Source of the DNA: a virus
Taxonomy: Duplodnaviria > Caudoviricetes
Strand: one strand, 5' to 3'
Length of the DNA stretch: 64,000 bases
Virus record (IMG/VR): IMGVR_UViG_3300037512_001928
Location: 43,218 to 107,217 of that record
Program-made: the position numbers and the translations under genes
Shown here: positions 4,843 through 62,746 of the stretch, piece by piece
Layout: every line of letters begins with the position of its first letter
Position numbering within the stretch: the stretch's first letter is position 1
The notes under the pieces: generated by a model
The model's database searches: none
What the model saw: only the letters and a program-made list of their open reading frames with translations
What the model was told of the DNA's origin: nothing

Positions 4843-5079
4843 TCTCCTGCTTCTCCTTCTCTTCCTCGGCTTTATGTTCCGCCTCGCCCTCTACGATCGA
4901 CTGCGACCACGCCGTCTCGTGAACAGCCCTGCCAAGCTCAATGAACTTCTCCATCAGCGAAACCATCCGCTTCTCCATCTGCCCGATCCGCCACCACGTC
5001 ATCCAGAAGCAGAAAATAACGATAATCTCCAGAATCAGCCCCATCGTTTCAGTCATCATGTGTAAATCCTCCTTATTTA

Positions 5080-25537: not shown

Positions 25538-26464
25538 ATGAACAAGTACCCGATGGTTGACTTCTACGGCGAGTCCCGCAGCGACACGGTTCTGGATTCT
25601 ACGGTCGGAACCACGGTCGAGATTCTGGAACGGATCTTCGATGCACTGACTGCCAACTACGGCGTTACGATCACAGCCCGGAGCATTGAGGGTCTGAACG
25701 GCGAGGTTCTGCAGCGCTGGGTGAACGGGTTTAAGAAAACCCATGCAGTAACGTCCGTCAACCTGTACATTTGCATTCTGAATCCGTTCCTGCGGTGGGC
25801 GCACACGATGACGTACGGCGATGGTGTGCCGTATCTCAAGGCGGAGCTTGGCGGAGTGCTGAAGACGATGAAGCTCCCGGATCCTGACAAGATTCCGGAG
25901 TGGGAACGTCCGAAGAGCAAGTACTATACGGAAGAAGAGGTCAGCACCCTGATGGATGTAAAGTACTCGCACAACAAGGTGCGGGACAAGGCGATCATCG
26001 CTCTGTTTCTCGGTTCCGGCATCCGTGTCAGCGAGCTGTGCAGTCTGACGCTTGGATCCATCCTTGACCGCCAGCGTGGGACGATTTACCTCCGCCGGAA
26101 GGGCGGTGTCTGGAAGGAAACGGAGGTTGCGGACTTCGCGTACGCCTACATCGATGAGTACCTGAAGACCCGCGACCTGAGCGATCACTCCGCTCCCCTC
26201 TTCCTGACCCGCGAAGGTCTGCCGTGTAACCGCAAGCAGATCTACAAGTCGCTGTCGCACATTCAGAAGCGGATGGACGTTGCGACTGGTCCCCATGCGC
26301 TACGCCATACGTTCGTGTCTGCCGCTGAAAAGGCGGGTGGCGGAGCTGTTGCCCGTGATCTCGCGAACCACAAGTCGATGACGATCACGAACCGGTACGA
26401 CCATTCCAACCGGGAACAGCGGATCGCGGCTGTGAACAGTCTTCCCTGGGCGATCAGCCGTTAA
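25538..26464 (+). CDS. Tyrosine recombinase 1 (XerC/D-like)
   Basis: GIRVSE, HALRH, LANH, NRY catalytic set. Confidence 0.9.
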   Translation: MNKYPMVDFYGESRSDTVLDSTVGTTVEILERIFDALTANYGVTITARSIEGLNGEVLQRWVNGFKKTHAVTSVNLYICILNPFLRWAHTMTYGDGVPYLKAELGGVLKTMKLPDPDKIPEWERPKSKYYTEEEVSTLMDVKYSHNKVRDKAIIALFLGSGIRVSELCSLTLGSILDRQRGTIYLRRKGGVWKETEVADFAYAYIDEYLKTRDLSDHSAPLFLTREGLPCNRKQIYKSLSHIQKRMDVATGPHALRHTFVSAAEKAGGGAVARDLANHKSMTITNRYDHSNREQRIAAVNSLPWAISR

Positions 26465-34439: not shown

Positions 34440-35606
34440 ATGAAGAATTACTGCGTTTATCATTTACACAGTGATTTATCTCTTCTGGATTCCACCACCA
34501 ACTTTAAGGATTATGTCAACAAAGCGGTCGAGTCAGGGATGACCGCCATTGCCTCGACCGAGCATGGGCTTCCGCGATCGTGGGTTGAAAAGAAACTGTA
34601 CTGCGATGAGAAGGGGATCAAATTTATTCACGGTGTTGAGATCTACCTGACCGAGGCGTTGGAGCCAAAGGTTCGTGACAACTATCATACGATTCTGCTT
34701 GCGAAGAACATCGAAGGTGTGCATGAGCTGAACCGCCTGATTGAATTGTCTTCCCGTCCCGATCATATGTATTACAGCAACCGGCTTTCCTTTGATGAGT
34801 TCCTGGCGATATCGTCGAACATCATTAAGATCAGCGCGTGCCTTGCATCTCCGTTGCGTAGGCTCCCGCCGTATCATGAGCGCTTCCGCGAACTGCTGAA
34901 ACATTATGATTACCTCGAAGTTCAGCCGCACAGCAACGAGGAACAGGCTGATTACAATCGTAAGCTGATGCATTATTCAGATACGTTTGGAATCCCGCTG
35001 ATCGCCGGTACGGATACGCATTCGCTGAATCAGTACAAGGCTGAGTGCCGTGATATTCTGATGTGGCGCAAGGAGCAGTTCTATCCCGGCGAGGAAGGTT
35101 TTGACCTGACGTGGCATTCCTGCGATGAACTACTGCATGCGTTTCAGGTTCAGAATGCACTGCCTCCTGCGGTGTATCTTGAAGCGATCGAAAATACAAA
35201 CGTTATGGCTGATAGCGTCGATAATTTTGAGCTTAATAAAAGTATCAAGTATCCAATCCTTTACGGATCGCCGGAGAATGATACAAAGAAACTGCACGAA
35301 GTTGTATGGCGTAAGCTTGACGAAAAGCTTGAAACCGGGATTATTCCACGGGAGCAGGAACAGGGATTCCGCGATGCGATCAGTGAAGAATTCCGGGTCT
35401 TTGAAAAGATCGGTATGAGCGGGTTCATATTATGCATGCATGAACTTCTTTCATGGTGCCGTGATTCCGGGATGTATATCGGACCCGGACGCGGTTCTGT
35501 TGGCGGTTCCCGTGTCGCGTACGTTGCCGATATTATCGACATTAACCCTGAACAGTGGAACACAAACTTTGCAAGGTTTGCAAACGAGGACAGAAAAGAA
35601 ATAGGT
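34440..35606 (+). CDS. dnaE: DNA polymerase III alpha, exon 1 (389 codons)
   Basis: PHP motifs HLHSDLSLLD, TEHG, TDTH; GPGRGSVGGS. Confidence 0.92.
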
Positions 35607-36610
35607 CGAACGATGGCCTACGTTGGCTGAGAAGCCTCCGAAAAAATATCCATTGAATTGCTGGGACACCCTGAGAGCCGTCAAGCTACAACGTGCGGAT
35701 GAAAGACGCCGGAGCGTGAATGCCTGAGAATCTGACGGATTGGGCAATCAGCAGCGAAACTCCGAATAGGAGAACGTTCAACGACCATCCCTTTGGGAGT
35801 ACATCGCAAGCGCGATGGAAGTGGTGGACATCCTTCGGGATGAAGATATGGTCTGTGCTTTATGGAAACATAAAGGGTGAAAACCTGCCCGGGGTAGCGC
35901 CTGGTATGTGTGTGTAAATGGTAAGGAAGGAGGTGAGTAGTTATGGGTAAAGTGAAAGATTTGACCGGGATGAAGTTTGGAAGATGGACTGTCATTCACG
36001 AAGTTGGGCGTAATAAGTCTGGCGGTGCGACATGGTTGTGTCAGTGTGAATGCGGGACTATGCGTGTATTAGATGGACGGTCTTTACGTGAACATACGAG
36101 TAAATCCTGCGGTTGTTTAGTTAAAGACCCTTCATATGTACATTGTAAACCAAATCTTAAACATGGCGGGAGAAATGAGAGATTATACCAAGTATGGCGT
36201 GGTATGATTGATCGGTGCCACAATCAAAAGAACAAGTATTATCCGTGTTATGGTGCTCGTGGTATTACAGTATGTGATGAATGGCGATATGATTATGCTG
36301 TATTTCGTGAGTGGGCGATGAGTCATGGATATGATCCAAACGCTAAGAAATATGATTGTACTATTGATCGTATTGATAATGATAAAGGCTATTCTCCAGA
36401 GAATTGTGCATGGCATAATCAAGTTGAGCAGTGTAATAACCGATCAAACAATCATATCATAACCTTCAATGGTGAGTCACACACCATTTCTGAATGGGCA
36501 AGAATGGTTGGATTAAGCAAGGATACATTGCGACGTCGGATTGAAAATTATGGATGGACAATCGAAATGGCCCTGACTACTCCAAACACACACACTGCAT
36601 AACACTTCAG
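35607..36610 (+). mobile_element. Group I intron in dnaE
   Basis: P1 TAGGT/GCCTA with U.G pair; P AATTGCTGGGA; Q AATCAGCAG; R GTTCAACGACCAT; S AAGATATGGTCT; terminal G at 36610; removal restores EIG-DIDVD. Confidence 0.93.
35943..36602 (+). CDS. Intron-encoded HNH homing endonuclease
   Basis: DLTGMKFGRWTV, YGARGITVCDEW, TIDRIDNDKGYSPENC..EQCNN. Confidence 0.85.
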   Translation: MGKVKDLTGMKFGRWTVIHEVGRNKSGGATWLCQCECGTMRVLDGRSLREHTSKSCGCLVKDPSYVHCKPNLKHGGRNERLYQVWRGMIDRCHNQKNKYYPCYGARGITVCDEWRYDYAVFREWAMSHGYDPNAKKYDCTIDRIDNDKGYSPENCAWHNQVEQCNNRSNNHIITFNGESHTISEWARMVGLSKDTLRRRIENYGWTIEMALTTPNTHTA

Positions 36611-38539
36611 GACATCGACGTGGATGTAGTTGATTCTGATCGTCCTGCAATCTTTGAGCATATCGAATCAAAGTTCGGTAAACCTTATACGGGTCGTGTC
36701 GCGGCATATGGTACGATTCAGTCCCTGGCATTTATCGACGATGTGGGCGGCGGTCTTGCAAACAAATGGGAATGGGAGCACAACCCTGACAAGTTCAATG
36801 AATCCCGGCATATAAAAATCAAAGGCGATTATGATCCTGCGAATCCGTTTACGCTGAAGCGTATCGCTGAAATCAAAGCCGCATATAAACAGGATCAGGA
36901 TGCCGCCATGGCGCGTTATCCTGAGATCTTCCGGTATTATGACGGCTTGGTCGGTACAAGAGTATCGCAGTCGATTCATCCTGCCGGGATCGTCATCTCC
37001 CCTCTTGTCCTTGACGAAGAATATGGTGTGTTCAACAAAGACGGCGAACGCTGTTTGTTGTTGAATATGGACGAGCTTCACGAGGTTGGCGCTGCGAAGT
37101 TCGACTTTCTGATCCTGAAAACCGTAACGGTTATTCGCGATTGTTATGCGCTGATGGGTAAACAGCCGCCGAGAATGCATGAAGTCAACTGGGATGATCA
37201 AAAGGTTTGGGCTTCCATGGCGTCGGATGCGAATTCCATCTTCCAGTTTGAATCCGACTTTGCTGCTGAATCCATGAAGAAATTCAAGCCCAAGTCAATC
37301 TTTGATTTATCCATGGTGACTGCGGCATTGCGTCCATCTGGAACGTCATATCGTGATCAGCTGTTTGCACATATTCCGCATCATAATCCATCAACAATGA
37401 TTGACAAGTTGTTGAGCGATTCAAATGGATACCTTATTTACCAAGAGCAGATTATTGCTTTTTTACAACAAATCTGTGGATTGTCAGGTTCTGAATCGGA
37501 TTCGACCAGGCGCGGGATCGCAAGAAAGAGGCCTGAGATACTTGAGAAAATGTTACCGCGCATTCTTGATGGTTATTGTTCAAGAAGTGATAAATCTCGC
37601 GAGGTTGCAACAAAGGAATGTCAGGAGTTCCTTCAGATTATTGAGGATGCAAGCTCATACATGTTCGGGTACAATCACAGTATAAGCTACTGCCTCCTAT
37701 CCTATATGTGCGGTTATCTCCGTTACTACCATCCTCTCGAATGGATTGCCGCGTTCATGAAGAATGCCGCCAACGATGATGATATCAAAACGGGTAAACA
37801 GATGGCAAAGGATCGCGGGATCACATTCACGCGTCCTGTCTTTGGTCAGGATAACCGCACGTATTATATCGACCATCAGCATAAGTCCATCTCCGATTCG
37901 ATCTCCAGTATCAAAGGTGTCGGGCTGAAGGATGCAGAGGCAATTCTGAGGATCTACAATGATGGCAACTACAGTAACTTCATCGAAGTTCTCTATCAGA
38001 TGATCATGACTGAGAATGCGCTGAACCGGGCAGTCATCGAAACGCTGATCATGAGCGATTACTTCCGCGAGTTCGGATCCCGTGGTAAACTGATGCATCT
38101 CGCCAGCGAGGTTTTTGATGGCAAGAATCGCCTGACAAAAACGCTGAAGCCAGCCACGGTTTATGATCGCCTTGGTAAACTCTCGCTCGAAGAACAGCTG
38201 ACGCCGGAGTCCGATTTTACCGCGAAGGAAATTATCCAGTTTGAGATCTCCCACTACGGCGAACCGATCTCGGTTATTGCCACGGCAACCAACCAGTATG
38301 CCGTTCTGACGGTGGATACAAAGTATTCGCCGAAGATTGAGCTGTACAATCTGACCAAAGGTACTCGTGGTCTGATGAAAGTCCGCAAGCCGTATTTCAA
38401 TAAGAATCCGCTGGCTGTCGGGGATATGATTGCAATGATTCGCTGGCATCCTGATCAGGCGTACAGTTTCAAGGACGGTCAGCGTGTGGTCAAACCCGGC
38501 GTGAAGGATCTGTGGTTGGATGAGTATCGTATATTATAA
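36611..38539 (+). CDS. dnaE: DNA polymerase III alpha, exon 2
   Basis: DIDVD, HPAGIVI, KFDFL, FQFES, YQEQ, FGYNHS..Y; spliced product 1031 aa. Confidence 0.92.
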   Translation, partial: DIDVDVVDSDRPAIFEHIESKFGKPYTGRVAAYGTIQSLAFIDDVGGGLANKWEWEHNPDKFNESRHIKIKGDYDPANPFTLKRIAEIKAAYKQDQDAAMARYPEIFRYYDGLVGTRVSQSIHPAGIVISPLVLDEEYGVFNKDGERCLLLNMDELHEVGAAKFDFLILKTVTVIRDCYALMGKQPPRMHEVNWDDQKVWASMASDANSIFQFESDFAAESMKKFKPKSIFDLSMVTAALRPSGTSYRDQLFAHIPHHNPSTMIDKLLSDSNGYLIYQEQIIAFLQQICGLSGSESDSTRRGIARKRPEILEKMLPRILDGYCSRSDKSREVATKECQEFLQIIEDASSYMFGYNHSISYCLLSYMCGYLRYYHPLEWIAAFMKNAANDDDIKTGKQMAKDRGITFTRPVFGQDNRTYYIDHQHKSISDSISSIKGVGLKDAEAILRIYNDGNYSNFIEVLYQMIMTENALNRAVIETLIMSDYFREFGSRGKLMHLASEVFDGKNRLTKTLKPATVYDRLGKLSLEEQLTPESDFTAKEIIQFEISHYGEPISVIATATNQYAVLTVDTKYSPKIELYNLTKGTRGLMKVRKPYFNKNPLAVGDMIAMIRWHPDQAYSFKDGQRVVKPGVKDLWLDEYRIL

Positions 38540-39410
38540 GAGGTGTATATATGATCAAAGTACTTGATGGCGAAATGGAATTTGAGCCGCTTGACCCGGA
38601 TGATATGCCGCGATTCCTGAATAGTATTGCCTGTGATTACTTCGCGGATCAGCCGGAAATTAAATGGAAGCTTGCTCAGTGTTCGTTCTGGATCCATATG
38701 ATCAACGAGATACGCAAGATGAATCGCTGAAAATATATTAACCGCACATGCGGACCATAGGAGCCGCCTTGTTACAGATGTTTGCCAGCACCCCGGGACA
38801 AGGTTGAAGAACGTGACCTGCGCTGAGGTGCACATTCCGAGGTTATAAGAATGGCAGAGATGGCAACTGTCAGCCTGAATTAGCAGGAATGATCAAGGCT
38901 GAAAGGAGTATAAATATGTGGCATAAATGTAAATGTTGTCGCTGTGGGAAATATAAGTATTGTCATGTCAAATCTTTGGAATCGCGTGTTCTTTGGAAAT
39001 GTGATGAATGTGAAATCCTGACTGTTATCTTTACAAAGGAGTCTACGGCAGATGAGTAATCAACATATTCTGATTGACATAAACGAGGCTTCAACTGTTG
39101 TGATGAACTTTATCGGGACAGAAAAATATCACGATATTCTCTCTGCTATAGAGGATAATGCGGCTGCGGGTTTCAGTGCCGGGCTGTCATTTGCGCTTTG
39201 CCTGGCGATGGCATACTGTAAAACATTTCTGTATCATGTCGAAGAAGAAAAGTCCTGATTGCAGTTCCTGCCCGAACTATTATCTGATCTGGTGGAGCGG
39301 TGGGAAACACAGATGTAAACTTAAACCTGTATACATACTTGACAGGTTTACAAAACGAAGACCAAAGTGGTGCCCGTTACGGGACAATGATTAATCGAGG
39401 AGATGTATAC

Positions 39411-39614
39411 ATGGATTTCGGATATGTATGGCCCGCTCTTCGTTCCGGGCGTAAGGTTCGTCTTGAAGGCTGGCTTGGTTATTGGGCTTGGGAAAATAAT
39501 ACAATCATGATGCATTGTGCGAACGGTGATGTGATTGATATTCGCAATACGAATGATGTCACATATACGTTCAGTAACATTGCGTTGGATCGCTGGGAGA
39601 TTGTTGAGGATTGA
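39411..39614 (+). CDS. DUF2829/Tad2-like putative anti-defence protein
   Basis: MDFG...LRSGRKVRLEGW...WEIVE. Confidence 0.5.
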   Translation: MDFGYVWPALRSGRKVRLEGWLGYWAWENNTIMMHCANGDVIDIRNTNDVTYTFSNIALDRWEIVED

Positions 39615-41103
39615 TCTATGGATGATATCAAACTCTACGCAGTCCTGTTCGGTATATGTATCGGATGGCTGATCTGGTTATCTTTGGATGTGTACGATCT
39701 TCATGAAGAGATCAAAAAGCTGAAGAGGCGGTAACTCAATATGAGTGATGATTTTATAGTAATGTTTGCTATGGTTACAGGATCAATCATTGCTTTGGTA
39801 ACAATACTGCCAATGGTGATTGTACACCTTTAACACAGAAAGGATGATTGTATGAATCAACCACATATTCTTGTTGATATGAATGAAGCATCGTCTGTTG
39901 TAATGAAATTTATCGGAACTGATAAGTTTGATGAAGTCGTGTCAGCAGTAGAAAACAACGCAAAAGCAGGATTCACAGCAGGATTATCATTTGCTTTATG
40001 TTTGATTATGGCTGAAGCAAAAACATATCTCTATCACGTTGACAAACAGAAAGCAGAAGACACTTAAAGTGACCAATTAAGGAGAAACAGTATGAACGTA
40101 ATGTACGAACCGAAGAAAGTAACAGCTGTTTTACGAGTTGTTGTTACTGGTGAATTTTATGACGATGAAGCTTCTGAAGAAACACTTCGATATTGTGTAG
40201 AACAATACCTTGGAGATGCTGGATTTGATGTCGATGTATCTGTGTTAAGGTGACCGTTTGTGACGGAGGTGCGAAATGAAAAAATGCTGTGAATGCTGCG
40301 TCTGGGCGATAGATGAGAATGGCCTGCTTTTATGCGTATCATCCCCGAAAACCTTGCTTCATATTGTCAAGCACAAGAGCGGTTGGAAGAAGCGAAAACA
40401 TTAAAAAGTCCAGAGTTGGTTAAAATTTATACCGCGATAGTCAATAGGCTTTCAATACAGTTAAAAGCGTGAAACTTCGCAATATAAGCGGATTGTAGTG
40501 ACTTAAAGGAATTTTAACGCAGGATCTTGATCCGGCTTAAAGTAACCAATTACATAGGAGGAAAGTATGGATAAGATATTTGGATTTGAAAAGGCTGAAG
40601 ATATAGCCAAATATATAACAGAGCACGCCAGAGAAAATAATCTGCGCATTACTTTGACTGTAGAACCTGGGAGATATGAGGTGAGCGTAGAGCCGTGGGA
40701 AAATGTCGTTATGTACTGCCCATATCATCAAAAAGAGATTAAAGATTGCAAATAATTCGATGACGCTTTTAGTAAGGTGATGCCGAATGAATGAAAATCT
40801 TGAAAATCGTTTCATAAATTTGAAGGATGAAGCATTGAAGATAAATTGCTCCGATAATGAAACGGAGCATAGCGGATTGCATTGTATTGTATGCAATAAA
40901 AAATGTTATGATTTAATTTGTGATGAATGTAAACGAGCAATCAAATGGGCAAGATTACAAATGTATAAAGTTCAAAGAATTATAGTTAAAAATAATTAGA
41001 TAACAATTAGCAGTAACTAAATTCACAATAGGAGCATTTATGGAAGTGTCTGGATGATCTGGGTTAGCTGTGTAAAATGATGTAATAAAGCAGGAAAGGT
41101 AGG

Positions 41104-43210
41104 ATGACGATGCCTGACAGGGAGAAGGTTATCAAAGCACTTGAGTGCAGGAAAAACGCAGACAAGCGGTGCGAAAATCCATGCGAAGAAACAGGGATGT
41201 GCCATTACGCAACGGCAGTTCGTGACATAAACGGTGAAATTTATAGACCGTTTATCTGCGACAGGGAAAGAATCTGTACCGATGTCCTTGACCTGCTGAA
41301 AGAGCAGGAAGCGGTAAAACCTGTAAAACAGATAGAGCAAACTGAGTGGACAGTATGCGGTAATTGCCGTAATCACATTATCTCAAAATGGATATTCTGT
41401 CCGTATTGTGGAAGGTCGGTGAAGTGGGAATGAATAACGAAGAATGGTGCAAGAAGAATTGCCCATATAGTACGGATTGTGCTTGTGATGGAGTTTGTAA
41501 TTTCGTTTTATTTTTGCTGAAAGAACAGGAAGCGGTTGAACCTGATATTGATTCAGAAGGAACATGTACTTGCGGGAACTGCGGTGAAACAGTTGGATAC
41601 TATCCCGTTGGATGTAATACTCCGCAAAAATTATGCAAGTTTTGCCAAAATTGCGGAAAGGAGGTGAAGTGGAAATGCTGACAATTAGAAAAATAAAATA
41701 TAACTATAATACAGAATGCAATTCATGCGGAAAGGTAAGAAAACAGTATTACGAGATTTGCTATGGAATTCCTGTCCATGACTTTCCCTGGCAACCATAC
41801 TCTACTCTTCCGCTTTGCAGAACATGCCTTAGAAGATTGAGTGGAAGTATCGAAAAAAAATTATCGGTTTCAGACAGGCGGTGAAGTGGGATGGTTGAAA
41901 ATAAGTTCCCTGATGATTGCCCCGAAAATTGCCCGTATTTTCATAACGTTGGCTTATCTGATGAAGATCAATACTTCTTTTGCGACTTAATAGGAGTAGA
42001 AATACATGGATATACAGACCACTGTTTTTGTCCGATAAAAACAGTGGTAATATAGGTGGTGAAGTGGTATGCCTGACAGGGAAGCATTAGAACTTGTACA
42101 AAAATGTTTAGATGACTGGCCTTATGCGGCTACGAGAGTCGTGGACATTATGACCCGGCTTGAAAAGGTAAAGGAACTGCTGAAAGAGCAGGACAAAAGC
42201 CGTCTTGAAATAGCACATGAAATGGTAACAGGCTCGATTCTGATGTGTCAAGGCAAAGAAATAGTACGGTGCAAGGATTGCAAGCATAGACCGAAATTGT
42301 TAGTAACAGACATAGAAGATATGGAAAGCGGTTTTGATTTGCAGTTCCCGGACTATAAATGTCATTGCAGAAATGATGGTGATGGTTGGTACTCATGGTA
42401 TCCGCCAGACGATTGGTTCTGTGCTGACGGGGAACGCAAATGATTTAAAGGTCACCTTAACCGAATCGGGGGTGACTATGTGGACAGGGAGAAGGTTATC
42501 AGAGGGCTTGAGGAACTGTGCAAATACCTGTTTCATGAGTATGAAATATGCTATCACGGAGATCAAGAAGACATTTATAACAGGTTTTTGATTGCCGATA
42601 ATGCCCTTGCCCTGCTGAAAGAGCAGGAAGCGAAGACCGGAGCGTGGCAATGGAAGATTCATGGGAAACCGGAAAGCGGAGGCACGCTTGGAGAAGCGGT
42701 CTGCGATCAGTGCGGGGAATCAACGTATGCGACGGCAGTTAAGGGCACTTTAAATTATTGCCCGAACTGCGGAGCAAAGATGACGGACAGGCGGTGAAGT
42801 GGGAATGAAAGACCCGTATGAAGAGGTATGGAAGAATATCATAGAGTCATTCAACGCACAATCAAAGGCGATTTTATGGATTGCTGAACGGACTCTATCT
42901 GCGAAGGATTTTAAGGAGTTTGTAGATGAGTTCGCAAAAAAGCCAAAAGACGATCATGACGAACTGCTTGATTTTATACGCAAGAAAGGTTGGTGAAGTG
43001 GGAATGAGTTGGAGTATTCCATCAAAAGAAGAAGCTGAAGAGTATACTCGATCTTATCTTGCCGCACAGGAAGCCTATTACGAAGAACACATGGATGATT
43101 GTTGTGAGACATGCGATTTTTACGAATGCGGCAAATGCTATTTGGACATTGGCGAGCTTGTCGAAAAAGACTACAGTTGCAAATTCTATAGAAGGCAGTG
43201 AAATGAAATG
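41104..43210 (+). repeat. Mosaic gene cluster with repeated junction boxes
   Basis: GGTGAAGTGG..ATG x6, (C/T)TGCTGAAAGA(G/A)CAGGA x4, GACAGGGA start box x3. Confidence 0.85.
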
Positions 43211-44092
43211 AATGACAAGGAAATCATGGAGGATTATTACATGAAAAGCGTAGAAGAAGTCATTGAAGGTGAATCTAATGGATCAAGATTTAGCAGAAAA
43301 GATATATTGGATACTGATTGAAGAAGGACAGCACAATTTAAAATTTTCGCTTGGCAGTATAATCACAAATACACCGGATGAAGTAAGGAATATTATTCAA
43401 AAACACATCAAGGAACTAACTCAAAGTGACTAATAACCGTTTACCAAAGGTATATGGGGCTATGACATTAAAGGAATTATGGTGGGGGGGGGATACTGTG
43501 ACAACTTGGAAAGATGTGCGTGAAACGTTGGAAAAGTTGAAACAAGCGGTTGAAGAAATGCGGAAAGCAAGCAAAGCACTTTTGGAAGAAGTAAATAAAC
43601 CGTGGATAGTACGATAAATTAGTGTTAACGGAGGATGGCAGAATGACTGTGAAAGAACTAAAGGAAAAACTCGAAAATGTTCAAGATGATGCTAAAGTAA
43701 TGCTTATCGATATGGATAGTATTTGGCAGTCTGGGCGATATGACGTTGAAGATATTTGTATCGAAAACGAAGGGAAAACAGTATTGATCATGTAATTTAT
43801 TGTGATCTTTTGTTAGTGAAGGTCAGAATACACCGGCAACACATTTGCTCGTTTATTGTGGCAACAAGAATCACATGATGTTAGCTATCACAATATTTAT
43901 GAATGATTGTGCTTTCAAAGTTTAGATTAGCCAATAAGATAATTAAAAAAACGGACTAGGCTAAATATATTAAAATTATTGATTTTTAATGAATTACTGA
44001 AATTTAGCTATGGACAAATAAGAGAAAGTAGGTTATAGTGTGAAAGTCGGTTAGCCATTGATTTATTGGCGTAAATCCAGGAGGTTAATGAG

Positions 44093-44194
44093 ATGAGCCA
44101 GCCTGTAAATATACAATCAATTTCCATACGGAATTTCAAATCCCTCTTTGATGTCACGATCGAACCTGGGAATGTTAATGTGATCAAGAAATAA
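44093..44194 (+). pseudogene. 5' fragment of an ABC/AAA (OLD/SMC-like) ATPase gene
   Basis: IQSISIRNFKSLFDVTIEPGNVNVI, ending just before the expected Walker A. Confidence 0.7.
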
Positions 44195-44860
44195 AATGAC
44201 GCATTAAGTTAGAAGGAAAAGGAAGAAAACCACGGGCAACAGAATCAAAGAAAATGCGACCATGCGAGGTGAAACATGGAAAGAGAATGGAGCGTTGAAG
44301 AAGTCATTGAAGCACTTCAGACATGGGAAGAACCGTTCTATTCAGAATCAGAAACAAAGTGGCTAATGGAAAAAGCGGCTGAACTGTTGAAAGAGTATGA
44401 ACCACATGTTCTGTCATGGGAAGAAATGGTTGAAGCAGGAAAGAATCATGAAGCGGTATGGGTTGAAGAATATCCAAACACCGGAAGGAGAAACAGGTGG
44501 GCGATTGCCATTGAAGGAGTAGAGCCACCAGAACATGGGTATAATTATCCGGGTGGGGTGGCATTCAATGCCGTTGATGCCGATGATGATATTTTCGATG
44601 GTGATTTATATTGGTTTGATGGTGTTCTGAGTTGGAGGGCGTGGAATAAAAAGCCTACAGAAATGCAGATGAGGGCTGTGAAATGGGAGCAAAAGTGACC
44701 TATTTGAAAAATAATCTTACGACTATCTTTTAAAATCATGATGAACACCCTAAAAAACCATACTATGTCTTGTGTGCGATCTTTTGACCATCTTTTGTTT
44801 TTCTCCGATTTGCTGAGTATGGAGCAGCAGAAAGTGACCGTTAACGAAGGAGGTGATTGT

Positions 44861-45046
44861 ATGGCAAACATACTTCGGGAATGTTGTGGAACAAGACCAA
44901 ATGTCATAGTAGTAACGTATCTCGGAACCACATATGAGATGTTTGTTATCGAATGTCCAAAGTGTGGGATGAAAACGCAACCATATCGTAGACTTGACCG
45001 GGCATATAGTGAATGGAATCATCCTGAAGATGTGCATTTGAATTAA
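44861..45046 (+). CDS. Lar-like zinc-ribbon protein
   Basis: CCG..P...IECPKCG...AYSEWN. Confidence 0.45.
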   Translation: MANILRECCGTRPNVIVVTYLGTTYEMFVIECPKCGMKTQPYRRLDRAYSEWNHPEDVHLN

Positions 45047-46491
45047 TGTGACCATTAACGACCTAAATGCAAACGCTTGGAAATGCCGAATAACTCAATA
45101 ATTGGAGTGATTTAACGCATGAACAGATGGAAAGAATTGAAACCTGGTGACCCTGTGTTTGTAAGGAATGAGGTTAGACCGTACAGGGTTAAGTGCAGGG
45201 ATGAACGATTTATTATCTGCACAAAACCATTCAATCCGCAGCGAACCGTAATGTATTTTATCGTTGACCTTGAAAGGCATGTCAGAGGTACAGACAATAT
45301 GGTTTTCTGCTCCGGGTATGAAACACAGGAACAATGCGAAGAACGTCTGAAGGAACTACAAGAGGGTCTGATTGAGGTTTCGTATCGCAATTATGTCCCA
45401 TTAGACTAAAGTGACCAAGGAGTTATTATGACGAAAGAAGAAATCCTGAAAGAGATAAAAGAATATCTTGATGATGCGGATAAGGCTATTAGTGAAAATG
45501 AAGAGTATATCAGAGGATGGAAGTCTGCAATGCTTGTTGCGTTGGAGCTTGTCAGTAAATTAAAGTGACCATAAAAGGAGAAAACGAAAATGTACAACAG
45601 CGGGATCAATGAAGACATTCGGTATCGCGTGATTCTCTATAATGAACATGGTGAAATCATAGAAGATACAATGGTTATAGGGCAAGACAATGCCTATAAT
45701 TATGGAGAAAAACGAGCAATAGAGCTTGGAATGCGAAAAACAGATTTCAATGTAAAAGTTGATTAAATGTGACCAAGGAGAAATATAAAATGACAGTTAA
45801 AGAATTGATTCAAGAGCTTGAGAAATATCCGCAAGATTACACCGTCAAGGTGACGAGAGATGGAATCGCTGGAGATATTTATCCGGAAGATATTCACTAC
45901 GGATTGGACGAGAAAGAAAAAGAACTTGTACTTTAATGTGACCATTATCACGGGTGGCGGAATAGGTAAACGCAACTCTGTGGCAAAGAGTTTGATTATA
46001 CAAAGGTATGGAGGAAGCCGGGTACAGCGGATGAAAAGGATATATCTTCATAATGCAAACGAACCGCACAACACATGCTGTGACAACTGTATCTTCGCCC
46101 AGCCGACCAATATAGACGGGCTGATCATCTGTATGCTGGATGGATATTCGAAAGACGCAGATATGTCGTGCCATCATTTTGACGCATTGGATTAAGAATG
46201 ACAGATAATATGTTGTCCAATATTTACGTTTTCCGGCTTTTTAGATAACATATTATCCGTCGAAGGAGTTCTGTAATGATTAATGAAGTTGTATACTGTG
46301 CCGTCAACGATCGCGATGAAGTACAGTGGGTTCAGGGATCCAGCTCGAAGACGCGCTACTTTCGCACAGACCGATACCTGAAAAAGGCTGTCAGATATCA
46401 TAACACATTTCACGGCGATGATTACTGGCATATCGCGAAGTGTAACCTGGTCGAAGACGTCTACTACGAGGAATAAAATTTTTGTTTGAAC

Positions 46492-46523
46492 GCAACAAGA
46501 CTGTCAAAAATGTTCTATATATA
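46492..46523 (+). promoter_or_regulatory. Phage-specific promoter
   Basis: GCAAC-N14-TGTTCTATAT. Confidence 0.7.
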
Positions 46524-46786
46524 TTAGTAGGAGAATTTTATAAGGAGGTGATATTGATGAGTAATTCTTCGTCAGATCAGCATGAGAATCATGCCGCATC
46601 AACCACTGTCGGTATCGGCGGTCTGCTTGGCGTAGCGTTTGTTGTGCTCAGGCTCTGCGGTGTAATTAACTGGTCATGGTGGTGGGTGCTTGCGCCGTTC
46701 TGGATTCCTGTGGCTTTCTCGTTGCTGATTGTTATCTTTGCGTTGGTTCTGTCCGGCAAGTATGGCCCGGAGAAAGGAGGTTGGTG

Positions 46787-47899
46787 ATGCGTCAGCTCGC
46801 ATCTATACAGCGCATTACTGATATCCGCCCAATCGAGGGTAAGGATCGGATTGTGCAGTGCCATGTTAACGGCTGGAATGTGATCATCAAGAAGGATGAA
46901 TTCAACGAGGGTGATCTTGGCGTTTACGTTGAAATTGATTCCCAGCTTCCGGAAAAGCCTGAGTTTGAATTCCTGCGTCCAAAGAAGTTCAGGATCAAAA
47001 CAATGAAAATGTCCGGAGTCCTCAGCGAAGGTATTGTCTTTCCGCTGTCGATTCTTCCGGTGCGTGAGAAACCCTATGAGCTTGGCGAGGATGTTACCGG
47101 ACTGATGGGCGTTACCAAGTATGATCCGCAGGAAGAAGAGGACTGGTGGAAAAAGCTTCAGCAGGAACCTCGCAGGAAATCCTTCTGGGAAAAACTTCCG
47201 CTGATGCGGTTCAAATGGTATCGCGCCATTGTCAAATCCAAATCACGCAAGGGCGGTTTCCCATCGTTTATACCCAAGAGCGACGAAACGAGAATACAAA
47301 ATTGTCCATGGGTATTGCAGGATAAAAACACCAGATGGCTTGCCAGCGAAAAGGTCGACGGCTGTAGCGCCACGTATCTTCTCCTTCGCAAGCGCCGCTT
47401 TCTCCTTCCCGACCGATTCGAGTTCATGGTCTGTTCCAGAAATTGCCGCCTCGCCCGCGATGATTCACATTACTGGAAGATCGCCGACAAGTACGAGATC
47501 GAGAAGAAGCTTCGCAGCCTGATTGGCAAGCAGGACTGGATCGCCGTTCAGGGCGAAATCATTGGTCCGAAAATTCAGAAGAACAAGTATAAGCTGACCG
47601 ACTACGATTTCTATGTGTTCAATCTCCTGAATCCTTCCCAGTGTAAGGACGGAAAAACATGGTATCGCCATCCGTCGCTTTATGCCGCTCGTCTGCTCTC
47701 TGAATTCGGGATCAAGTTTGTGCCGATCCTTGATACAGGAATTACGCTTCCGGATACCGTTGATGAAGTTCTTGCGATAGCGCACGGTCAGTCCCAGCTG
47801 GGCGGTACGCTTCGAGAAGGAATCGTCTTCCGGTCGATGGATGGACAGCAGTCGTTCAAGGCTGTGGATCCCGAGTTTCTGATTCATTACAACATCTGA
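46787..47899 (+). CDS. ATP-dependent RNA ligase (DRB0094/Rnl2-like family)
   Basis: RQLASIQRI..I.PI, EIDS, KSDETRIQN, EKVDG, QGEIIG, REGIVF, FKA. Confidence 0.88.
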   Translation: MRQLASIQRITDIRPIEGKDRIVQCHVNGWNVIIKKDEFNEGDLGVYVEIDSQLPEKPEFEFLRPKKFRIKTMKMSGVLSEGIVFPLSILPVREKPYELGEDVTGLMGVTKYDPQEEEDWWKKLQQEPRRKSFWEKLPLMRFKWYRAIVKSKSRKGGFPSFIPKSDETRIQNCPWVLQDKNTRWLASEKVDGCSATYLLLRKRRFLLPDRFEFMVCSRNCRLARDDSHYWKIADKYEIEKKLRSLIGKQDWIAVQGEIIGPKIQKNKYKLTDYDFYVFNLLNPSQCKDGKTWYRHPSLYAARLLSEFGIKFVPILDTGITLPDTVDEVLAIAHGQSQLGGTLREGIVFRSMDGQQSFKAVDPEFLIHYNI

Positions 47900-56210: not shown

Positions 56211-56240
56211 TTGACACGGAGACCATCGTCGACCTATACT
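56211..56240 (+). promoter_or_regulatory. Sigma-A promoter of the integrase
   Basis: TTGACA-N18-TATACT. Confidence 0.7.
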
Positions 56241-56336
56241 GTTTATGATCCGGGCGGCGGCATCTCCACCGGGTCACTGCACCTTGAAAAGAATATACCG
56301 CGAGGCTCCAAAGACACAACACAAGGAGGAGCCATC

Positions 56337-57281
56337 ATGGATAAGAATATTCTCTTTCAACCCTACGTAACGCTCTGGCTGGACTTGTTCAAGAAGAACG
56401 AAGTCAAACCTGCAACCTACCTCAGGCTCGTTCAGTCCGGTGAATCCCTTGGAAAATACCAGATTGGCGGGGAGAAAGTCACAGAGCTGTCCGCGCTTGA
56501 CGTACAGTTCTACATCAACCAGCTTGCAGAGGAAGGGTATAGCTTCAGCACCATCAAGAAACAGCTTGAGCTTGTCAAAGCTTCGCTGCGCAAGGCGGTA
56601 GCGCTGAAGCTGATCCCTGAGAATCCGGCAGACGAAATTGGGATGCCGAACAAGAATAAGCTCAAAAAGAAGCCGAAGGAAGTCTTGGCATACAACGAGG
56701 CGGAGCAGGACAGGATCCGCCAGTACGTTGCCGAACATCCTGAGGATCGTGCTTTGCTCTGTGTTCTCTTCATGATCGAAACCGGATTAAGGTCTGGCGA
56801 AGTATTAGCGCTCCGGTGGCAGGACGTAGATACCGAAGCGCATAAATGCAATGTTCATGCAACCGTTGCGAATCCGCACCAGCCGTCCAAATCCTTTGTA
56901 CAGGACTCACCGAAGACAGACGCGAGTATCCGCACGATCCCGCTGAATCCCAAGGCAACCATGATCCTGAAGAATCTGAAAAGGAAAGCAACCAATGAGT
57001 TTGTATTCGGTCAAGCTGGGCAGGGATACAACAAATGCGGGCGTCTTGAGTATCCTGCATTGATCCGGGCAATCCGGTCGATGTGCGCGAAGCTCAGGAT
57101 CCCCTATCGCGGCGCTCATGTCTTCCGTCATACCTTTGCAACCAACTGCTACTACAAAGGCGTGGACGTAAAGATCCTGGCGAAACTTCTCGGGCACAGC
57201 GATGTGAAGGTAACTTACAACACCTACATCAATCTGTACGGGGACGGCTTCGATGACATGTACGCAGCCGTTTGTTTGTAA
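56337..57281 (+). CDS. int: Phage integrase (tyrosine recombinase 2)
   Basis: TGLRSGE, HVFRHTFAT, LGH, Y; adjacent to a tRNA fragment. Confidence 0.92.
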   Translation: MDKNILFQPYVTLWLDLFKKNEVKPATYLRLVQSGESLGKYQIGGEKVTELSALDVQFYINQLAEEGYSFSTIKKQLELVKASLRKAVALKLIPENPADEIGMPNKNKLKKKPKEVLAYNEAEQDRIRQYVAEHPEDRALLCVLFMIETGLRSGEVLALRWQDVDTEAHKCNVHATVANPHQPSKSFVQDSPKTDASIRTIPLNPKATMILKNLKRKATNEFVFGQAGQGYNKCGRLEYPALIRAIRSMCAKLRIPYRGAHVFRHTFATNCYYKGVDVKILAKLLGHSDVKVTYNTYINLYGDGFDDMYAAVCL

Positions 57282-61416: not shown

Positions 61417-61631
61417 GTTACATCACCTCGGTAGATTCAATTATAAAATCCTGTCAAAGATTTTTGTGAAAAAACAGTAGATTTTGTACCAAAAATATGA
61501 TATAATCCGTAACTGAAAAGGCGTCGCGGGTACCAGCCGCAACGCCTTGGCGGAAGATGTGAGTCAGGCACACCATCCGGTAAGTGATTTTATCACATCC
61601 TTTCGCCGAAATCAAGAAAGGATGTGTTTTT

Positions 61632-62627
61632 ATGTCGTACGAAATCAAGATGTCCTTCCTGAAGGATCTGGAGCGCAGCCTGTCCGACAAGATCACCGTC
61701 AGCGCTTTGACTGATGTGATGTCTTCTGCTTCCGACATCCTTGAACATTACGAATTCTCAAGGATGCTCCGCATTGAAGACTCTTTCAGTCTGGATCTGT
61801 TGGATACTTGGCTTACTGCTATGAAGGTGGAAGGTCGAAGCCCAAAGACAATCCAGGCGTATTCCTACCTGATTAACCGTCTCCTCAATGATCTTCGTGT
61901 TCCGATCCGGAGTATTACGGTCTATCATCTTCGTAACTGGCTTACGAAAGAGAAGGCTCGCGGAATCTCTGACTGTACATTGAAAGGCAATCGCGAGGTC
62001 TTCAGTTCCATGTTTGGGTGGCTCTGGAGGGAAGGTCTGATCGAAAAGAACCCTGTCGCCAATATCGGCGCCATCAAAGTGCAGAAGAAGATCCGCGAAC
62101 CTTACGCGGATGTTGAACTTGAAAACCTGAAAAAAGCATGCGGACGTTCCAAGCTTCCGGATCGTGATATCGCCATTATCACCTTCCTGCTTGCTACAGG
62201 CTGTCGCGTCAGCGAGATGACGCAACTCAACCGGAATGATATCAATTTCATTGCTAAAGAAGTCACGGTTCTTGGAAAAGGAAATAAAGAGCGTGTTGTA
62301 TACTTCGATGGTGTTACGTCCATGTACCTCAAACGCTATCTGGATTCAAGACGCGATCTCTGTCCGGCGCTGTTCGCGAATTACCGTCTTGAACGCCTGA
62401 CTCAGAATGGTGTCCGGGCAATGCTGAACCGGATAGCACTGAACGCCGGTGTTGATCACGTCCATCCGCACAAGTTCCGCAGAACGCTGGCTACAATGCT
62501 GATCGCTCATGGCATGCCGATTCAGGAAGTCGCTGCGATCTTGGGCCACGAAAAACTGGACACGACCATGAAGTACGTTGTCTTGGACAAGACTCAGGTG
62601 AAAAACTCTTACATGAAATTCGCCTGA
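61632..62627 (+). CDS. Tyrosine recombinase 3 (XerD-like, N-terminal SAM-like domain)
   Basis: EGRSPKTI..Y, TGCRVSE, GKGNKER, HPHKFRRT, LGH, TTMKY; extended -10 TGATATAAT at 61498. Confidence 0.92.
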   Translation: MSYEIKMSFLKDLERSLSDKITVSALTDVMSSASDILEHYEFSRMLRIEDSFSLDLLDTWLTAMKVEGRSPKTIQAYSYLINRLLNDLRVPIRSITVYHLRNWLTKEKARGISDCTLKGNREVFSSMFGWLWREGLIEKNPVANIGAIKVQKKIREPYADVELENLKKACGRSKLPDRDIAIITFLLATGCRVSEMTQLNRNDINFIAKEVTVLGKGNKERVVYFDGVTSMYLKRYLDSRRDLCPALFANYRLERLTQNGVRAMLNRIALNAGVDHVHPHKFRRTLATMLIAHGMPIQEVAAILGHEKLDTTMKYVVLDKTQVKNSYMKFA

Positions 62628-62730
62628 CAGAAGTCTGTACAGCACCATGACAAACAGCCACTTGAAAAAACCAAGTGGCTGTTTCTTTTGCTGTTTTTTT
62701 TTACTGGTTAGTCTGTTCAAACCGTGTGGT

Positions 62731-62746
62731 TTAATGGTCACTTTAA
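62731..62746 (-). other. Perfect recombination-site candidate TTAA-AGTGACCA-TTAA
   Basis: Consensus of the 40-46 kb junction motif, about 100 bp downstream of recombinase 3. Confidence 0.7.

What the first reader, a model, noticed from the sequence alone, without database searches (positions are those of the whole stretch)
39830..45950. Integron-like gene-cassette array marked by tyrosine-recombinase-type sites, with a perfect site beside a XerD-like recombinase
Seen: a 16-bp element (TTAA arm, 8-bp asymmetric spacer with core GTGACC, TTAA arm) recurs at gene junctions of this low-GC block. Copies: 40064 TTAA-AGTGACCA-ATTA; 40245 TTAA-GGTGACCG-TTTG; 40537 TTAA-AGTAACCA-ATTA; 42445 TTAA-AGGTCACC-TTAA (inverted); 43421 TCAA-AGTGACTA-ATAA; 44690 CAAA-AGTGACCT-ATTT; 44829 AGAA-AGTGACCG-TTAA; 45043 TTAA-TGTGACCA-TTAA; 45406 CTAA-AGTGACCA-AGGA; 45560 TTAA-AGTGACCA-TAAA; 45764 TAAA-TGTGACCA-AGGA; 45933 TTAA-TGTGACCA-TTAT. 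The upstream gene's stop codon usually lies inside the site and an RBS often follows, so many intervals hold one apparently promoterless gene (40092-40253, 44861-45046, 45119-45409, 45428-45568, 45590-45766, 45790-45936). The only copy I saw outside the array is a perfect one at 62731-62746, just past recombinase 61632-62627. Known: inverted arms around a 6-8 bp asymmetric overlap is the loxP/dif/att-core architecture. Inference: recombinase 3 inserts, excises and reorders single-gene cassettes using short dsDNA sites rather than attC hairpins. It is not needed for lysogeny because int/attP lie elsewhere.
Basis: partly seen in the sequence, partly recalled or inferred. Interest (0 to 1): 0.92.

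Follow-up and report, generated by a model that had tools for sequence, protein, structure and literature searches.

The report
Repeated junction site between phage mini-genes
A 12-16 base sequence (TTAA-AGTGACCA-TTAA) marks the ends of about a dozen tiny accessory genes in a 107-kb cattle-gut phage. Other gut phages carry the same single genes cut out exactly at these ends, so it looks like a joint for swapping whole genes, but the enzyme responsible is not shown.

Summary
TTAAAGTGACCA(WTWA) occurs 13 times in window 40064-45948. Twelve copies are on the + strand and co-oriented with the genes; one is palindromic. One more copy lies at 62731(-). Nothing else in the 107-kb virus record comes close.

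Each copy overlaps or abuts the stop codon of a small gene, and an RBS usually follows.

The small-gene block 38551-46787 is absent from the three nearest relatives retrieved, where dnaE abuts the RNA-ligase gene.

Single genes of the block recur at 79-96% nucleotide identity in unrelated rumen phage contigs. The identity runs only from the leader or start codon to the stop codon.

The 8-nt centre is array-specific. Other arrays use ATAACAC, GGCAAY... or AATGA after the same TTAA, so it does not travel with the gene as an attC does.

A foreign ATPase gene is truncated exactly at a look-alike site.

The sites do not fold and are not promoters or terminators.

My split of the odds:
- Short-homology "linker" recombination, PeSL-like: about 0.4.
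- Site-specific exchange by the XerD/Rin-like recombinase 61584-62627: about 0.3. Three homologue loci carry similar sites beside the gene, but 77 of 80 do not.
- Regulatory site: about 0.15.

It is not an integron. The scan has noted similar junction arrays in other phages.

The parts
38551..46787 (+). Block of about 34 small co-oriented ORFs (30-140 aa) inserted between dnaE (C-terminal part 36554-38539) and the RNA-ligase gene (46787-47899)
   Evidence: ORFs. In relatives L015, L016 and L019, dnaE is followed within 0-70 nt by the ligase gene. GC is 36-45% against about 50% outside.
40064..40079 (+). Site TTAA-AGTGACCA-ATTA. TAA is the stop of ORF 39852-40067; the RBS and ATG 40092 follow. 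The variant closes all three frames.
   Evidence: 24.0 bits. 95% identity to L163/L165 and 88% to L167 ends at 40069.
40245..40260 (+). Site TTAA-GGTGACCG-TTTG. The TGA inside the core stops ORF 40092-40253.
   Evidence: 16.9 bits.
40537..40552 (+). Site TTAA-AGTAACCA-ATTA, followed by the RBS and ORF 40567-40755
   Evidence: 21.1 bits. A Logan contig's similarity to the next gene starts at 40555 (record 26).
42445..42460 (-). Palindromic variant TTAAGGTGACCTTTAA (AAGGTCACCTT), 1 nt after the stop of ORF 42069-42443
   Evidence: 19.4 bits; not used to build the matrix.
43421..43436 (+). Site TCAA-AGTGACTA-ATAA. The stop of ORF 43263-43433 lies just after the core.
   Evidence: 19.1 bits. Contigs of two runs stop matching at 43425 and 43430 (records 23 and 27).
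44093..44194 (+). 33-codon remnant of an AAA-ATPase gene. It is cut just before the Walker A motif at the look-alike site TTAA-TGTGATCA-AGAA (44175-44190).
   Evidence: Full-length relatives in rumen Clostridia MAGs read ...GNVNVFIGANGSGKT. The site scores 16.7 bits.
44690..44705 (+). Site CAAA-AGTGACCT-ATTT. The TGA in the core stops ORF 44276-44698. It is followed by a 139-nt ORF-less interval that runs to the next site.
   Evidence: 15.7 bits.
44829..44844 (+). Site AGAA-AGTGACCG-TTAA, then the RBS and ORF 44861-45046 (weak Lar-like match)
   Evidence: 17.5 bits. 93-96% identity to L169-L171 starts at 44839-44848, just after the core. Lar-like match.
45043..45058 (+). Site TTAA-TGTGACCA-TTAA. 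TAA is the stop of ORF 44861-45046.
   Evidence: 23.3 bits. Identity to L169-L172 ends exactly at 45046. Logan contigs end at 45046 and 45052.
45406..45421 (+). Site CTAA-AGTGACCA-AGGA. TAA is the stop of ORF 45119-45409, and the RBS overlaps the right end.
   Evidence: 19.3 bits. The homologue of ORF 45119-45409 in L024/L044 is flanked on both sides by the same motif, and it is the only gene the two records share.
45560..45575 (+). Site TTAA-AGTGACCA-TAAA. The TGA in the core stops ORF 45428-45568.
   Evidence: 21.9 bits.
45764..45779 (+). Site TAAA-TGTGACCA-AGGA. TAA is the stop of ORF 45590-45766.
   Evidence: 18.2 bits. A Logan contig matches up to 45775 and then runs on with unlike sequence (record 16).
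45933..45948 (+). Site TTAA-TGTGACCA-TTAT. TAA is the stop of ORF 45790-45936.
   Evidence: 21.4 bits.
62731..62746 (-). Best-scoring copy, TTAA-AGTGACCA-TTAA on the minus strand, 3 nt after the stop of the 39-codon minus-strand ORF 62868-62749
   Evidence: 24.6 bits.
62652..62684 (.). G+C-rich hairpin with T/A runs on both sides: a bidirectional terminator between the recombinase gene and the site
   Evidence: Read from the sequence.
61584..62627 (+). XerD-like tyrosine recombinase ('recombinase 3'), candidate enzyme. It is one of three tyrosine recombinases in the record.
   Evidence: PF00589 at 3.5e-34 plus SAM-like N-terminal domains. phrog_1 integrase. Three PF00589 genes.

Best explanation
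The motif is a portable intercistronic linker that also acts as a DNA recombination joint.

How it works:
- It ends whatever ORF runs into it, through TAA in one frame and TGA in a second. The AATTAA variant also closes the third frame.
- It is followed by the leader and RBS of the next gene.
- The same 12-16 nt recur at a dozen junctions of one co-transcribed block, and in other phages of the same 'linker family' (L024, L028, L188).
- Short-homology recombination between copies, probably by the phage's own recombination functions, can therefore delete, duplicate, reorder or import whole genes without breaking reading frames.
- Occasionally a look-alike sequence in foreign DNA is used instead.

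This is the logic of the PeSL cassettes of T4-type phages, carried out by a much shorter stop/RBS element.

Shown: the repeat, its position, its array-specificity and the gene-precise breakpoints. Inferred: that the exchanges run through homology between copies, and which proteins carry them out.
For: 1. The whole block is an insertion relative to the nearest relatives retrieved.

2. Five different genes of the block occur elsewhere as single units. In each case the similarity is confined to leader-to-stop or ATG-to-stop.
- ORF 39852: 95% and 88% nt, 39828/39833 to 40069.
- ORF 44861: 93-96% nt, 44839-44848 to 45046.
- ORF 45590: 79% nt, 45590-45766.
- ORF 45119: the only gene shared with contig G001, where it is flanked by the same motif on both sides.
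- Several more in Logan contigs of four other studies.

3. Junctions of the same block that lack the motif have equally sharp breakpoints (39828, 40757/40759, 43618). Left breakpoints wander by up to 10 nt. This fits homology or microhomology plus selection better than one fixed crossover point.

4. The block holds several other junction families that are shared with other phages.
- GGTGAAGTGGGAATG occurs six times.
- CTTTAACACAGAAAGG and GATGACGCTTT are also shared.
- Short blocks are 100% identical across phages.

5. ORFs enter the motif in two different frames, one interval between two sites has no ORF, and an ATPase gene is cut at a 10-of-11 look-alike. These are marks of DNA joining rather than of a translation signal in fixed register.

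6. Between the window and L024 the flanked gene has drifted to 82% nt identity and the leaders are unrelated, yet the motif is intact.

7. Precedent: PeSL-mediated indels, replacements and mini-circles in T4-type phages (PMC2839356, PMC4122927).

8. The phage encodes its own replication and recombination genes upstream, including a PD-(D/E)XK nuclease homologue; the Pfam call is on the syntenic gene of the relatives.
Against: - 12-16 nt with mismatches is very short for homologous exchange. PeSLs are several times longer.
- Homology within the motif cannot explain how the same gene sits between GTGACC cores in this phage and between ATAACAC cores in L169-L171, with borders at the TTAA on either side. 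Only 4-5 nt are then shared.
- It does not explain why the best copy, and the two copies in L188, lie directly beside a recombinase gene of one family.
- No recombinant molecule was observed. The joints listed all lie in the zinc-ribbon paralogue region.
Confidence: 0.4

Rival explanations
1. Site-specific cassette exchange. The XerD/Rin-like tyrosine recombinase 61584-62627 recognises the short asymmetric site A(A/T)GTGACC(A) with its TAA-rich flanks. It excises, inserts or reorders single genes between directly repeated copies. The 8-nt centre acts as an array-specific spacer, so only like sites recombine.
For: - The highest-scoring copy lies 104 nt past the recombinase gene.
- L188 was fetched by recombinase homology alone (40% identity, the closest of the five recombinases compared). 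It repeats the layout with the same core: late gene with stop TAA|AGTGACCG, RBS, 41-codon ORF, stop TGA inside AATGTGACCAATTA, terminator, convergent recombinase gene.
- L171 (31% identity) has TTAA-TTAACACT-TTAA, the homologue of ORF 44861, TTAA-ATAACACT-TTAA and a terminator next to its recombinase gene.
- L203 (37% identity) has 16 copies of TTAA-ATTCCAGA-ATAA in both orientations around the recombinase gene. Each is followed in frame by a startless 70-140-residue segment, which is the architecture of a Rin-type shufflon.
- Published precedent: the phage tyrosine invertase Rin is armless and XerD-like, and uses an 11-bp asymmetric repeat (PMC6109161).
- The ATPase gene is cut at a secondary site.
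- The sites are too short for ordinary homologous exchange.
Against: - 77 of 80 loci of the recombinase family show no repeated site. The closest homologues (43-49% identity) have none within 5 kb.
- The adjacency may only reflect the usual place of accessory genes, between the last late gene and the integrase.
- Contigs with sites (G001, G002, G006-G008) have no homologue of this recombinase, though all are fragments.
- The core does not move with the gene, and it differs between arrays that share a gene at 95% identity. Conservative exchange through an identical spacer cannot produce this.
- Breakpoints at motif-less junctions are just as sharp.
- The main array is 16 kb from the recombinase gene.
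- The flanks are not conserved in L188.
Confidence: 0.3
2. Regulatory site. The motif is an asymmetric operator or RNA recognition site at gene ends, like the stoperators of Cluster A mycobacteriophages or a processing or translational-operator site. It is read by a lineage-specific phage protein, and the cassette-like boundaries arise only from selection for intact genes.
For: - All copies are co-oriented with transcription and tied to the 3' end of a gene, even where no gene follows (44690 and 62731).
- The core is lineage-specific, as expected for a co-evolving protein.
- A perfect palindrome of the same half-site (ATGTGACCAAWTTGGTCACAT) sits just upstream of an RBS in L221, L230 and L238, like a repressor operator.
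- The motif is conserved between the window and L024 while the leaders diverged.
Against: - The motif is confined to two sub-blocks (40064-40552 and 44690-45948) plus one outlier, not spread over an expression class.
- Its distance to the next start codon varies from 11 to 65 nt.
- ORFs end in it in different frames.
- A truncated foreign gene ends at a look-alike, and an ORF-less interval lies between two sites. These speak for DNA joining.
- There is no common fold and no Rfam match.
- No candidate binding protein is shared by the records that carry the motif.
Confidence: 0.15
3. Target-duplicating insertion. Core-less cassettes with TTAA at both ends are inserted into the 8-nt core by staggered cuts. 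Each insertion copies the core, in the way CRISPR repeats or transposon target duplications arise. This would explain why cores are array-specific.
For: - In four arrays the same gene is flanked on both sides by the array's own core. Identity starts at (G)TTAAC... and ends at ...TTAA.
- TTAA-N8-TTAA recurs in two independent families.
Against: - No transposase or Cas1-like gene was seen.
- 4-nt ends are too short to be recognised.
- Left borders vary by about 10 nt between contexts.
- At 39826 two genes abut at a single TTTAA without a core.
Confidence: 0.07

Closest known systems
PeSL (promoter-early stem-loop) cassettes in the hyperplastic regions of T4-type phages (Arbiol et al. 2010, PMC2839356; Comeau et al. 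2014, PMC4122927)
   Same: A short conserved sequence repeated between small non-essential genes of a variable block. Insertions, deletions and replacements between phages have their ends at the repeat. Exchange between neighbouring copies is proposed, and in T4-type phages shown, to release mini-circles.
   Different: PeSLs are a sigma-70-type promoter plus a terminator hairpin, and they are much longer. The present motif is 12-16 nt, has no promoter, does not fold and is a stop/RBS joint within an operon. Its centre differs between arrays that share genes.
Rin shufflon of Bifidobacterium prophages (tyrosine invertase Rin, 11-bp asymmetric rix sites; Mavrich et al. 2018, PMC6109161), and the R64 Rci/sfx shufflon (from my own knowledge)
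   Same: An armless XerD-like phage tyrosine recombinase works with a short asymmetric repeat placed at the start of each exchangeable segment. Locus L203, whose recombinase is 37% identical to 61584-62627, has this architecture with a TTAA-N8-ATAA site.
   Different: In the window the units are complete genes with their own RBS and start codon. All array sites are direct repeats. The recombinase gene is 16 kb away, and no inversion is seen.
Integron cassette arrays (IntI, attI, attC), including attC arrays without an integrase
   Same: A row of promoterless single-gene units, with the stop codon often inside the site. The repeats are homogeneous within one array, as in chromosomal super-integrons (from my own knowledge).
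   Different: The sites are 16 bp of duplex DNA without the attC hairpin. The site's centre does not travel with its gene. The recombinase is not adjacent, not divergent, and not shown to be IntI-like.
Stoperators of Cluster A mycobacteriophages and start-associated sequences of Cluster K (from my own knowledge of the Hatfull laboratory's work; not read here)
   Same: An asymmetric site of about 13 bp, one orientation relative to transcription, at or over stop codons in short intergenic gaps.
   Different: Stoperators are spread over the whole genome and are bound by the immunity repressor. Here the copies are confined to about 6 kb, and they mark recombination breakpoints.
Heterospecific lox/FRT sites and pdif modules of Acinetobacter plasmids (XerC/XerD)
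   Same: Modules are bounded by short Xer-type sites.
   Different: Those sites have 11-13-bp arms. Here only TTAA is shared, the right arm is often missing, and genes are shared across arrays with unlike centres.

Membership tests
Integron (IntI/attI/attC) | attC sites are 57-141-nt imperfect palindromes that fold as hairpins in single-stranded DNA | tested here: not met
   70-nt windows around ten sites were folded as DNA. Eight have z-scores between -0.75 and +0.73, and there is no common structure. The conserved part is 12-16 nt.
Integron (IntI/attI/attC) | Each cassette carries its own site when it moves | tested here: not met
   The gene of ORF 44861 is flanked by GTGACC cores here and by ATAACAC cores in L169-L171. 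ORF 39852 is followed by three different sequences after TTAAAG.
Integron (IntI/attI/attC) | An integrase gene adjacent to and divergent from the array, with attI and a cassette promoter | tested here: not met
   The nearest tyrosine recombinase genes are at 56211-57281 and 61584-62627, 10-16 kb downstream and on the same strand as the array. The IntI-specific insertion was not examined.
Integron (IntI/attI/attC) | Promoterless single-ORF cassettes in one orientation | tested here: met
   ORFs. There is no excess of promoter-like or terminator-like sites (28 found against 23 expected; 3 against 5).
lox/FRT/dif-type core site | Two inverted recombinase-binding arms of 11-13 bp around a 6-8-bp overlap region | tested here: not met
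   Only TTAA is symmetric. TTAA sits at +12 in 4 of 14 copies here and in 7 of 14 copies of the ATAACAC family. The conserved part is the asymmetric centre.
Rin/Rci-type shufflon | Short asymmetric sites in both orientations, each heading a startless alternative 3' gene segment, next to a tyrosine invertase gene | tested here: not met
   In the window, all array sites are direct and are followed by an RBS and ATG. The feature is met in the related locus L203.
Rin/Rci-type shufflon | A recombinase of the armless XerD-like type | tested here: inconclusive
   The 347-aa protein has a SAM-like core-binding domain and a catalytic domain. Residues 1-70 are unassigned.
PeSL cassettes | A composite of a strong sigma-70 promoter and a terminator stem-loop | tested here: not met
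PeSL cassettes | Repeats lie between small accessory genes of a variable block, and indel or replacement end-points between phages coincide with them | tested here: met
Stoperators (Cluster A mycobacteriophages) | Asymmetric sites co-oriented with transcription at stop codons | tested here: met
Stoperators (Cluster A mycobacteriophages) | Dozens of copies spread over the whole genome, bound by the immunity repressor | tested here: not met
   The copies are confined to 40064-45948 plus one at 62731. Binding cannot be tested with these tools.

The most novel reading that the evidence does not exclude
Rumen phages carry a cassette system in which a Rin/XerD-like tyrosine recombinase moves complete, promoterless single genes between 16-bp TTAA-N8-TTAA duplex sites. 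The 8-bp centre is specific to each array, like an address. The same recombinase family also drives tail-fibre shufflons (L203). This would be a second kind of gene-cassette platform, without hairpins, alongside integrons.
Probability: 0.28. Interest if true: 0.85.

Novelty: new variant of a known kind. Interest (0 to 1): 0.62.

Why it matters
Small accessory genes of phages, which often act in host takeover or against host defences, turn over very fast, and how they are exchanged gene by gene is poorly understood. Here the unit of exchange can be read directly: leader, ORF and stop. The joints carry a short array-specific sequence. If the joints are recombinase sites, this is a compact natural cassette-exchange system with programmable centres. 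If they are short-homology linkers, they extend the PeSL principle from T4-type phages to uncultured gut phages, with a far smaller element. Either way the motif gives a handle for finding and delimiting accessory-gene arrays in metagenomic phage genomes.

Tried and rejected
Searches that gave nothing useful:
- blastn of the array against GenBank phages: no match.
- Exact 16-mer scan of IMG/VR: 14 single-copy hits, at chance level.
- The search for related loci for the RNA ligase and for ORF 44276: nothing.
- The exact ligase protein is not on record.
- Whole-contig scans of G002-G005 for the motif: at control level.
- Search for the donor of the ATPase fragment in GTDB genomes: only the protein family was found, with 75% nt identity over 57 nt, so the capture breakpoint could not be confirmed at DNA level.
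- The 33-aa query was too short for the two protein tools.

Sequencing runs:
- No RNA holder was listed.
- Contigs of four runs were laid on the stretch. The 15 joints shown all lie in the zinc-ribbon paralogue region 41100-42800, and 108 more were not shown. No statement can be made on circles or deletions at GTGACC sites.

Ideas considered and dropped:
- Tandem duplication as the origin of the repeat. The flanked proteins are unrelated except for the pair 39052/39852.
- A -10-like promoter. The core abuts the RBS at 45406 and 45764.
- A conserved mini-ORF starting at the GTG of the core. Lengths and frames are inconsistent.
- A slippery heptamer. The base before TTAAAG varies.
- Pairing with the 3' end of 16S rRNA. 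It holds only for the GTGACC family and sits on the wrong side of the SD.
- An antisense small RNA. No complementary copy was found in a transcribed orientation.
- In-frame tandem stops (TAA-N9-TAA). These are present in three families, but ORFs use different frames.
- IS200/IS605-type insertion next to TTTAA(C). There are no subterminal hairpins and no TnpA.

General association of the recombinase family with repeated TTAA-N8 words: 12 of 80 loci against 27 of 118 control loci, so no enrichment.

Full report
**What the DNA is.** The window is bases 43218-107217 of a single 107,217-bp virus record, classed as linear and about 94% complete. The sequence is held by bovine-gut metagenome runs. 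It encodes:
- a split DnaE-type polymerase (34440-35630 and 36554-38539);
- a primase-helicase;
- a DUF2828/vWA protein;
- an RNA ligase (46787-47899);
- NrdD;
- three tyrosine recombinases.

Many uncultured phages share the ligase at 55-73% identity.

**The observation.**
- A[AT]GTGACC occurs 8 times on the + strand of 40000-46000, against 0.23 expected (P about 2e-10). It occurs 3 times on both strands of the other 101 kb.
- A weight matrix separates 14 sites (15.7-24.6 bits) from the next best score in the record, 12.4. Two of the 14 (42445 and 44175) were not used to build it.
- The conserved part is TTAA(A/T)GTGACC(A). A second TTAA sits at +12 in four copies.
- All copies follow the direction of the genes.
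- The stop codon of the upstream ORF is the TAA of the left arm in five cases and the TGA inside the core in three.
- The distance to the next ATG varies from 11 to 65 nt. Two copies (44690 and 62731) have no gene behind them.
- The flanked proteins are unrelated to each other, so the repeat is not a by-product of tandem gene duplication.
- The region shows no excess of promoter- or terminator-like sites, no common fold at the sites and no Rfam match.

**The block is an insertion, and its genes are mobile as single units.** In three relatives (ligase 67-73% identical), dnaE is followed within 0-70 nt by the ligase gene, so the 8.2-kb small-gene block is absent there. Single genes of the block recur elsewhere:

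| Gene | Where it recurs | Identity | Extent of the match |
|---|---|---|---|
| ORF 39852-40067 | L163/L165 and L167 | 95% and 88% nt | 39828/39833 to 40069 |
| ORF 44861-45046 | L169-L171 | 93-96% nt | 44839-44848 to 45046 |
| ORF 45590-45766 | L259/L260 | 79% nt | ATG to stop only |
| ORF 45119-45409 | 9.6-kb contig G001 | 82% nt | the only gene shared; flanked there by the same motif on both sides |

Contigs of four other studies that hold near-identical pieces stop matching at 40069, 43425, 43430, 45046, 45052 and 45775, all at or in a site. They also stop at junctions without the motif: 39828, 40757/40759 and 43618.

**The centre is array-specific.** Where the same gene sits in another array, the sequence after its TTAA stop is different:
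- ATAACAC in L168-L172. This family has 2-5 co-oriented copies per contig against 0-1 for the control, and TTAA at +12 in 7 of 14 sites.
- GGCRAY..ATGACGCT in L025, L043 and L167.
- AATGA in L163.

The GTGACC centre is shared only with L024, L028 and L188. The centre therefore belongs to the array and not to the gene, which is the opposite of an attC.

**Marks of DNA joining.**
- The 33-codon ORF 44093-44194 is the N-terminus of an AAA ATPase family found in rumen Clostridia genomes. It is cut two codons after GNVNVI, just before the Walker A motif.
- The codons for V-N-V-I form TTAATGTGATC, which scores 16.7 bits as a site.
I confirmed the truncation and the look-alike site, but found no near-identical donor.
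- An ORF-less 139-nt interval lies between the sites at 44690 and 44829.
- ORFs run into the motif in two frames.

**The recombinase.**
- ORF 61584-62627 is a 347-aa XerD-like tyrosine recombinase.
- The copy at 62731 is on the opposite strand. It follows a 39-codon ORF and is separated from the recombinase gene by a bidirectional terminator.
- I fetched 80 loci of this recombinase family (32-49% identity). As a group they are not enriched in repeated TTAA-N8 words (12 of 80, against 27 of 118 control loci). The closest homologues have no GTGACC site within 5 kb.

Three loci stand out:
- **L188** (40% identity) repeats the window's layout with the same core. The order is late gene, site, 41-codon ORF, site, terminator, convergent recombinase gene.
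- **L171** (31% identity) has the homologue of ORF 44861 between two ATAACAC sites, next to a terminator, an RHH gene and the recombinase gene.
- **L203** (37% identity) has 16 copies of TTAA-ATTCCAGA-ATAA, four on one strand upstream and twelve on the other strand downstream of the recombinase gene. Each is followed in frame by a startless segment beginning NSRI.

The L203 layout is that of the published Rin shufflon, in which a phage tyrosine invertase uses an 11-bp asymmetric site (PMC6109161). A recombinase of this family acting on a 16-bp site of this shape is therefore plausible. However, the adjacency in L188, L171 and the window may equally reflect the usual place of accessory genes, between the last late gene and the integrase.

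**Weighing the explanations.** The evidence that the motif is a DNA joint where whole genes are exchanged is good; I put it at about 0.7 over all DNA-level mechanisms. Which mechanism applies is open.

I rank short-homology linker recombination first (0.4), for three reasons:
- Motif-less junctions and at least three other junction families in the same block behave alike.
- The breakpoints wander by a few bases.
- T4-type PeSLs give a documented precedent.

Recombinase-mediated exchange follows at 0.3. A regulatory site comes next at 0.15; its best support is the palindromic operator-like form of the same half-site in L221, L230 and L238. A target-duplicating insertion gets 0.07. None of these explains neatly how one gene comes to lie between unlike centres in different arrays.

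**Relation to known systems.** This is not an integron, a lox/dif-type site, a PeSL or a shufflon by their defining features (see the membership table). It works most like PeSL-mediated modular shuffling.

The scan has noted comparable junction arrays in other phages. I did not test any of these notes:
- e1-5660767 and e1-5698613: stop/start linkers.
- e1-5758281 and e1-5777685: TGAAA-N6-TTTCA palindromes.

**Verdict.** This is a real and unusually clear example of gene-by-gene modular exchange at a short array-specific junction.

Noticed in passing
window 41104-43201 (junctions near 41421, 41664, 41868, 42056, 42783, 42985): A tandem family of Cys-rich zinc-ribbon mini-proteins joined by a second junction motif, GGTGAAGTGGGAATG. 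Short blocks (MPDREKVIK, LLKEQEA, DWFCADGE and the junction) are 100% identical at DNA level to L023, L025, L026 and L043, while the sequence between them differs. This region has by far the highest depth and nearly all the joints in other rumen runs. It looks like a recombining mosaic gene family.
   Followed up: partly
L203:3316-9910 (IMGVR_UViG_3300012007_000008, 174,862-bp contig): Sixteen copies of TTAA-ATTCCAGA-ATAA in both orientations surround a tyrosine recombinase gene (4896-5951). Each heads a startless 70-140-residue segment beginning NSRI. This is probably a very large Rin-type shufflon for a tail or receptor-binding protein.
   Followed up: partly
window 34440-38539: The DnaE polymerase gene is split into two ORFs (34440-35630 and 36554-38539) with a 219-codon ORF (35943-36602) between them. 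Relative L019 has an HNH_3 endonuclease gene at that place, and L015 has one intact 1034-aa gene.
   Followed up: no
L167, L025, L043; partial copy at window 40752-40775: A longer junction family, TTAA-AGGCRAYNATGACGCT-(T/A)TAA, recurs between small genes of other rumen phages. L163 has GTTAAAGAATGA. Plain TAA+AGGAGG overlaps are common in L015 and L167.
   Followed up: partly
L221:665, L230:1613-1639, L238:666: A perfect palindrome, ATGTGACCAAWTTGGTCACAT, lies just upstream of an RBS about 4 kb from a recombinase gene of the same family. It looks like an operator and has the same half-site as the window's motif.
   Followed up: no
window 39052-39258 and 39852-40067: Two paralogous 68/71-aa genes (63% identical) lie within the block. 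The family is widespread in rumen contigs (32 clusters).
   Followed up: partly
window 39826-39853: The leader CTTTAACACAGAAAGGATGATT before ORF 39852 recurs before a different gene in L025 and L026. Here the stop of the upstream ORF is the TTTAA of that leader, so two units abut without any core between them.
   Followed up: partly
window 25538-26464, 56211-57281, 61584-62627: One phage record has three mutually distant tyrosine recombinase genes. Relative G004 has four.
   Followed up: no
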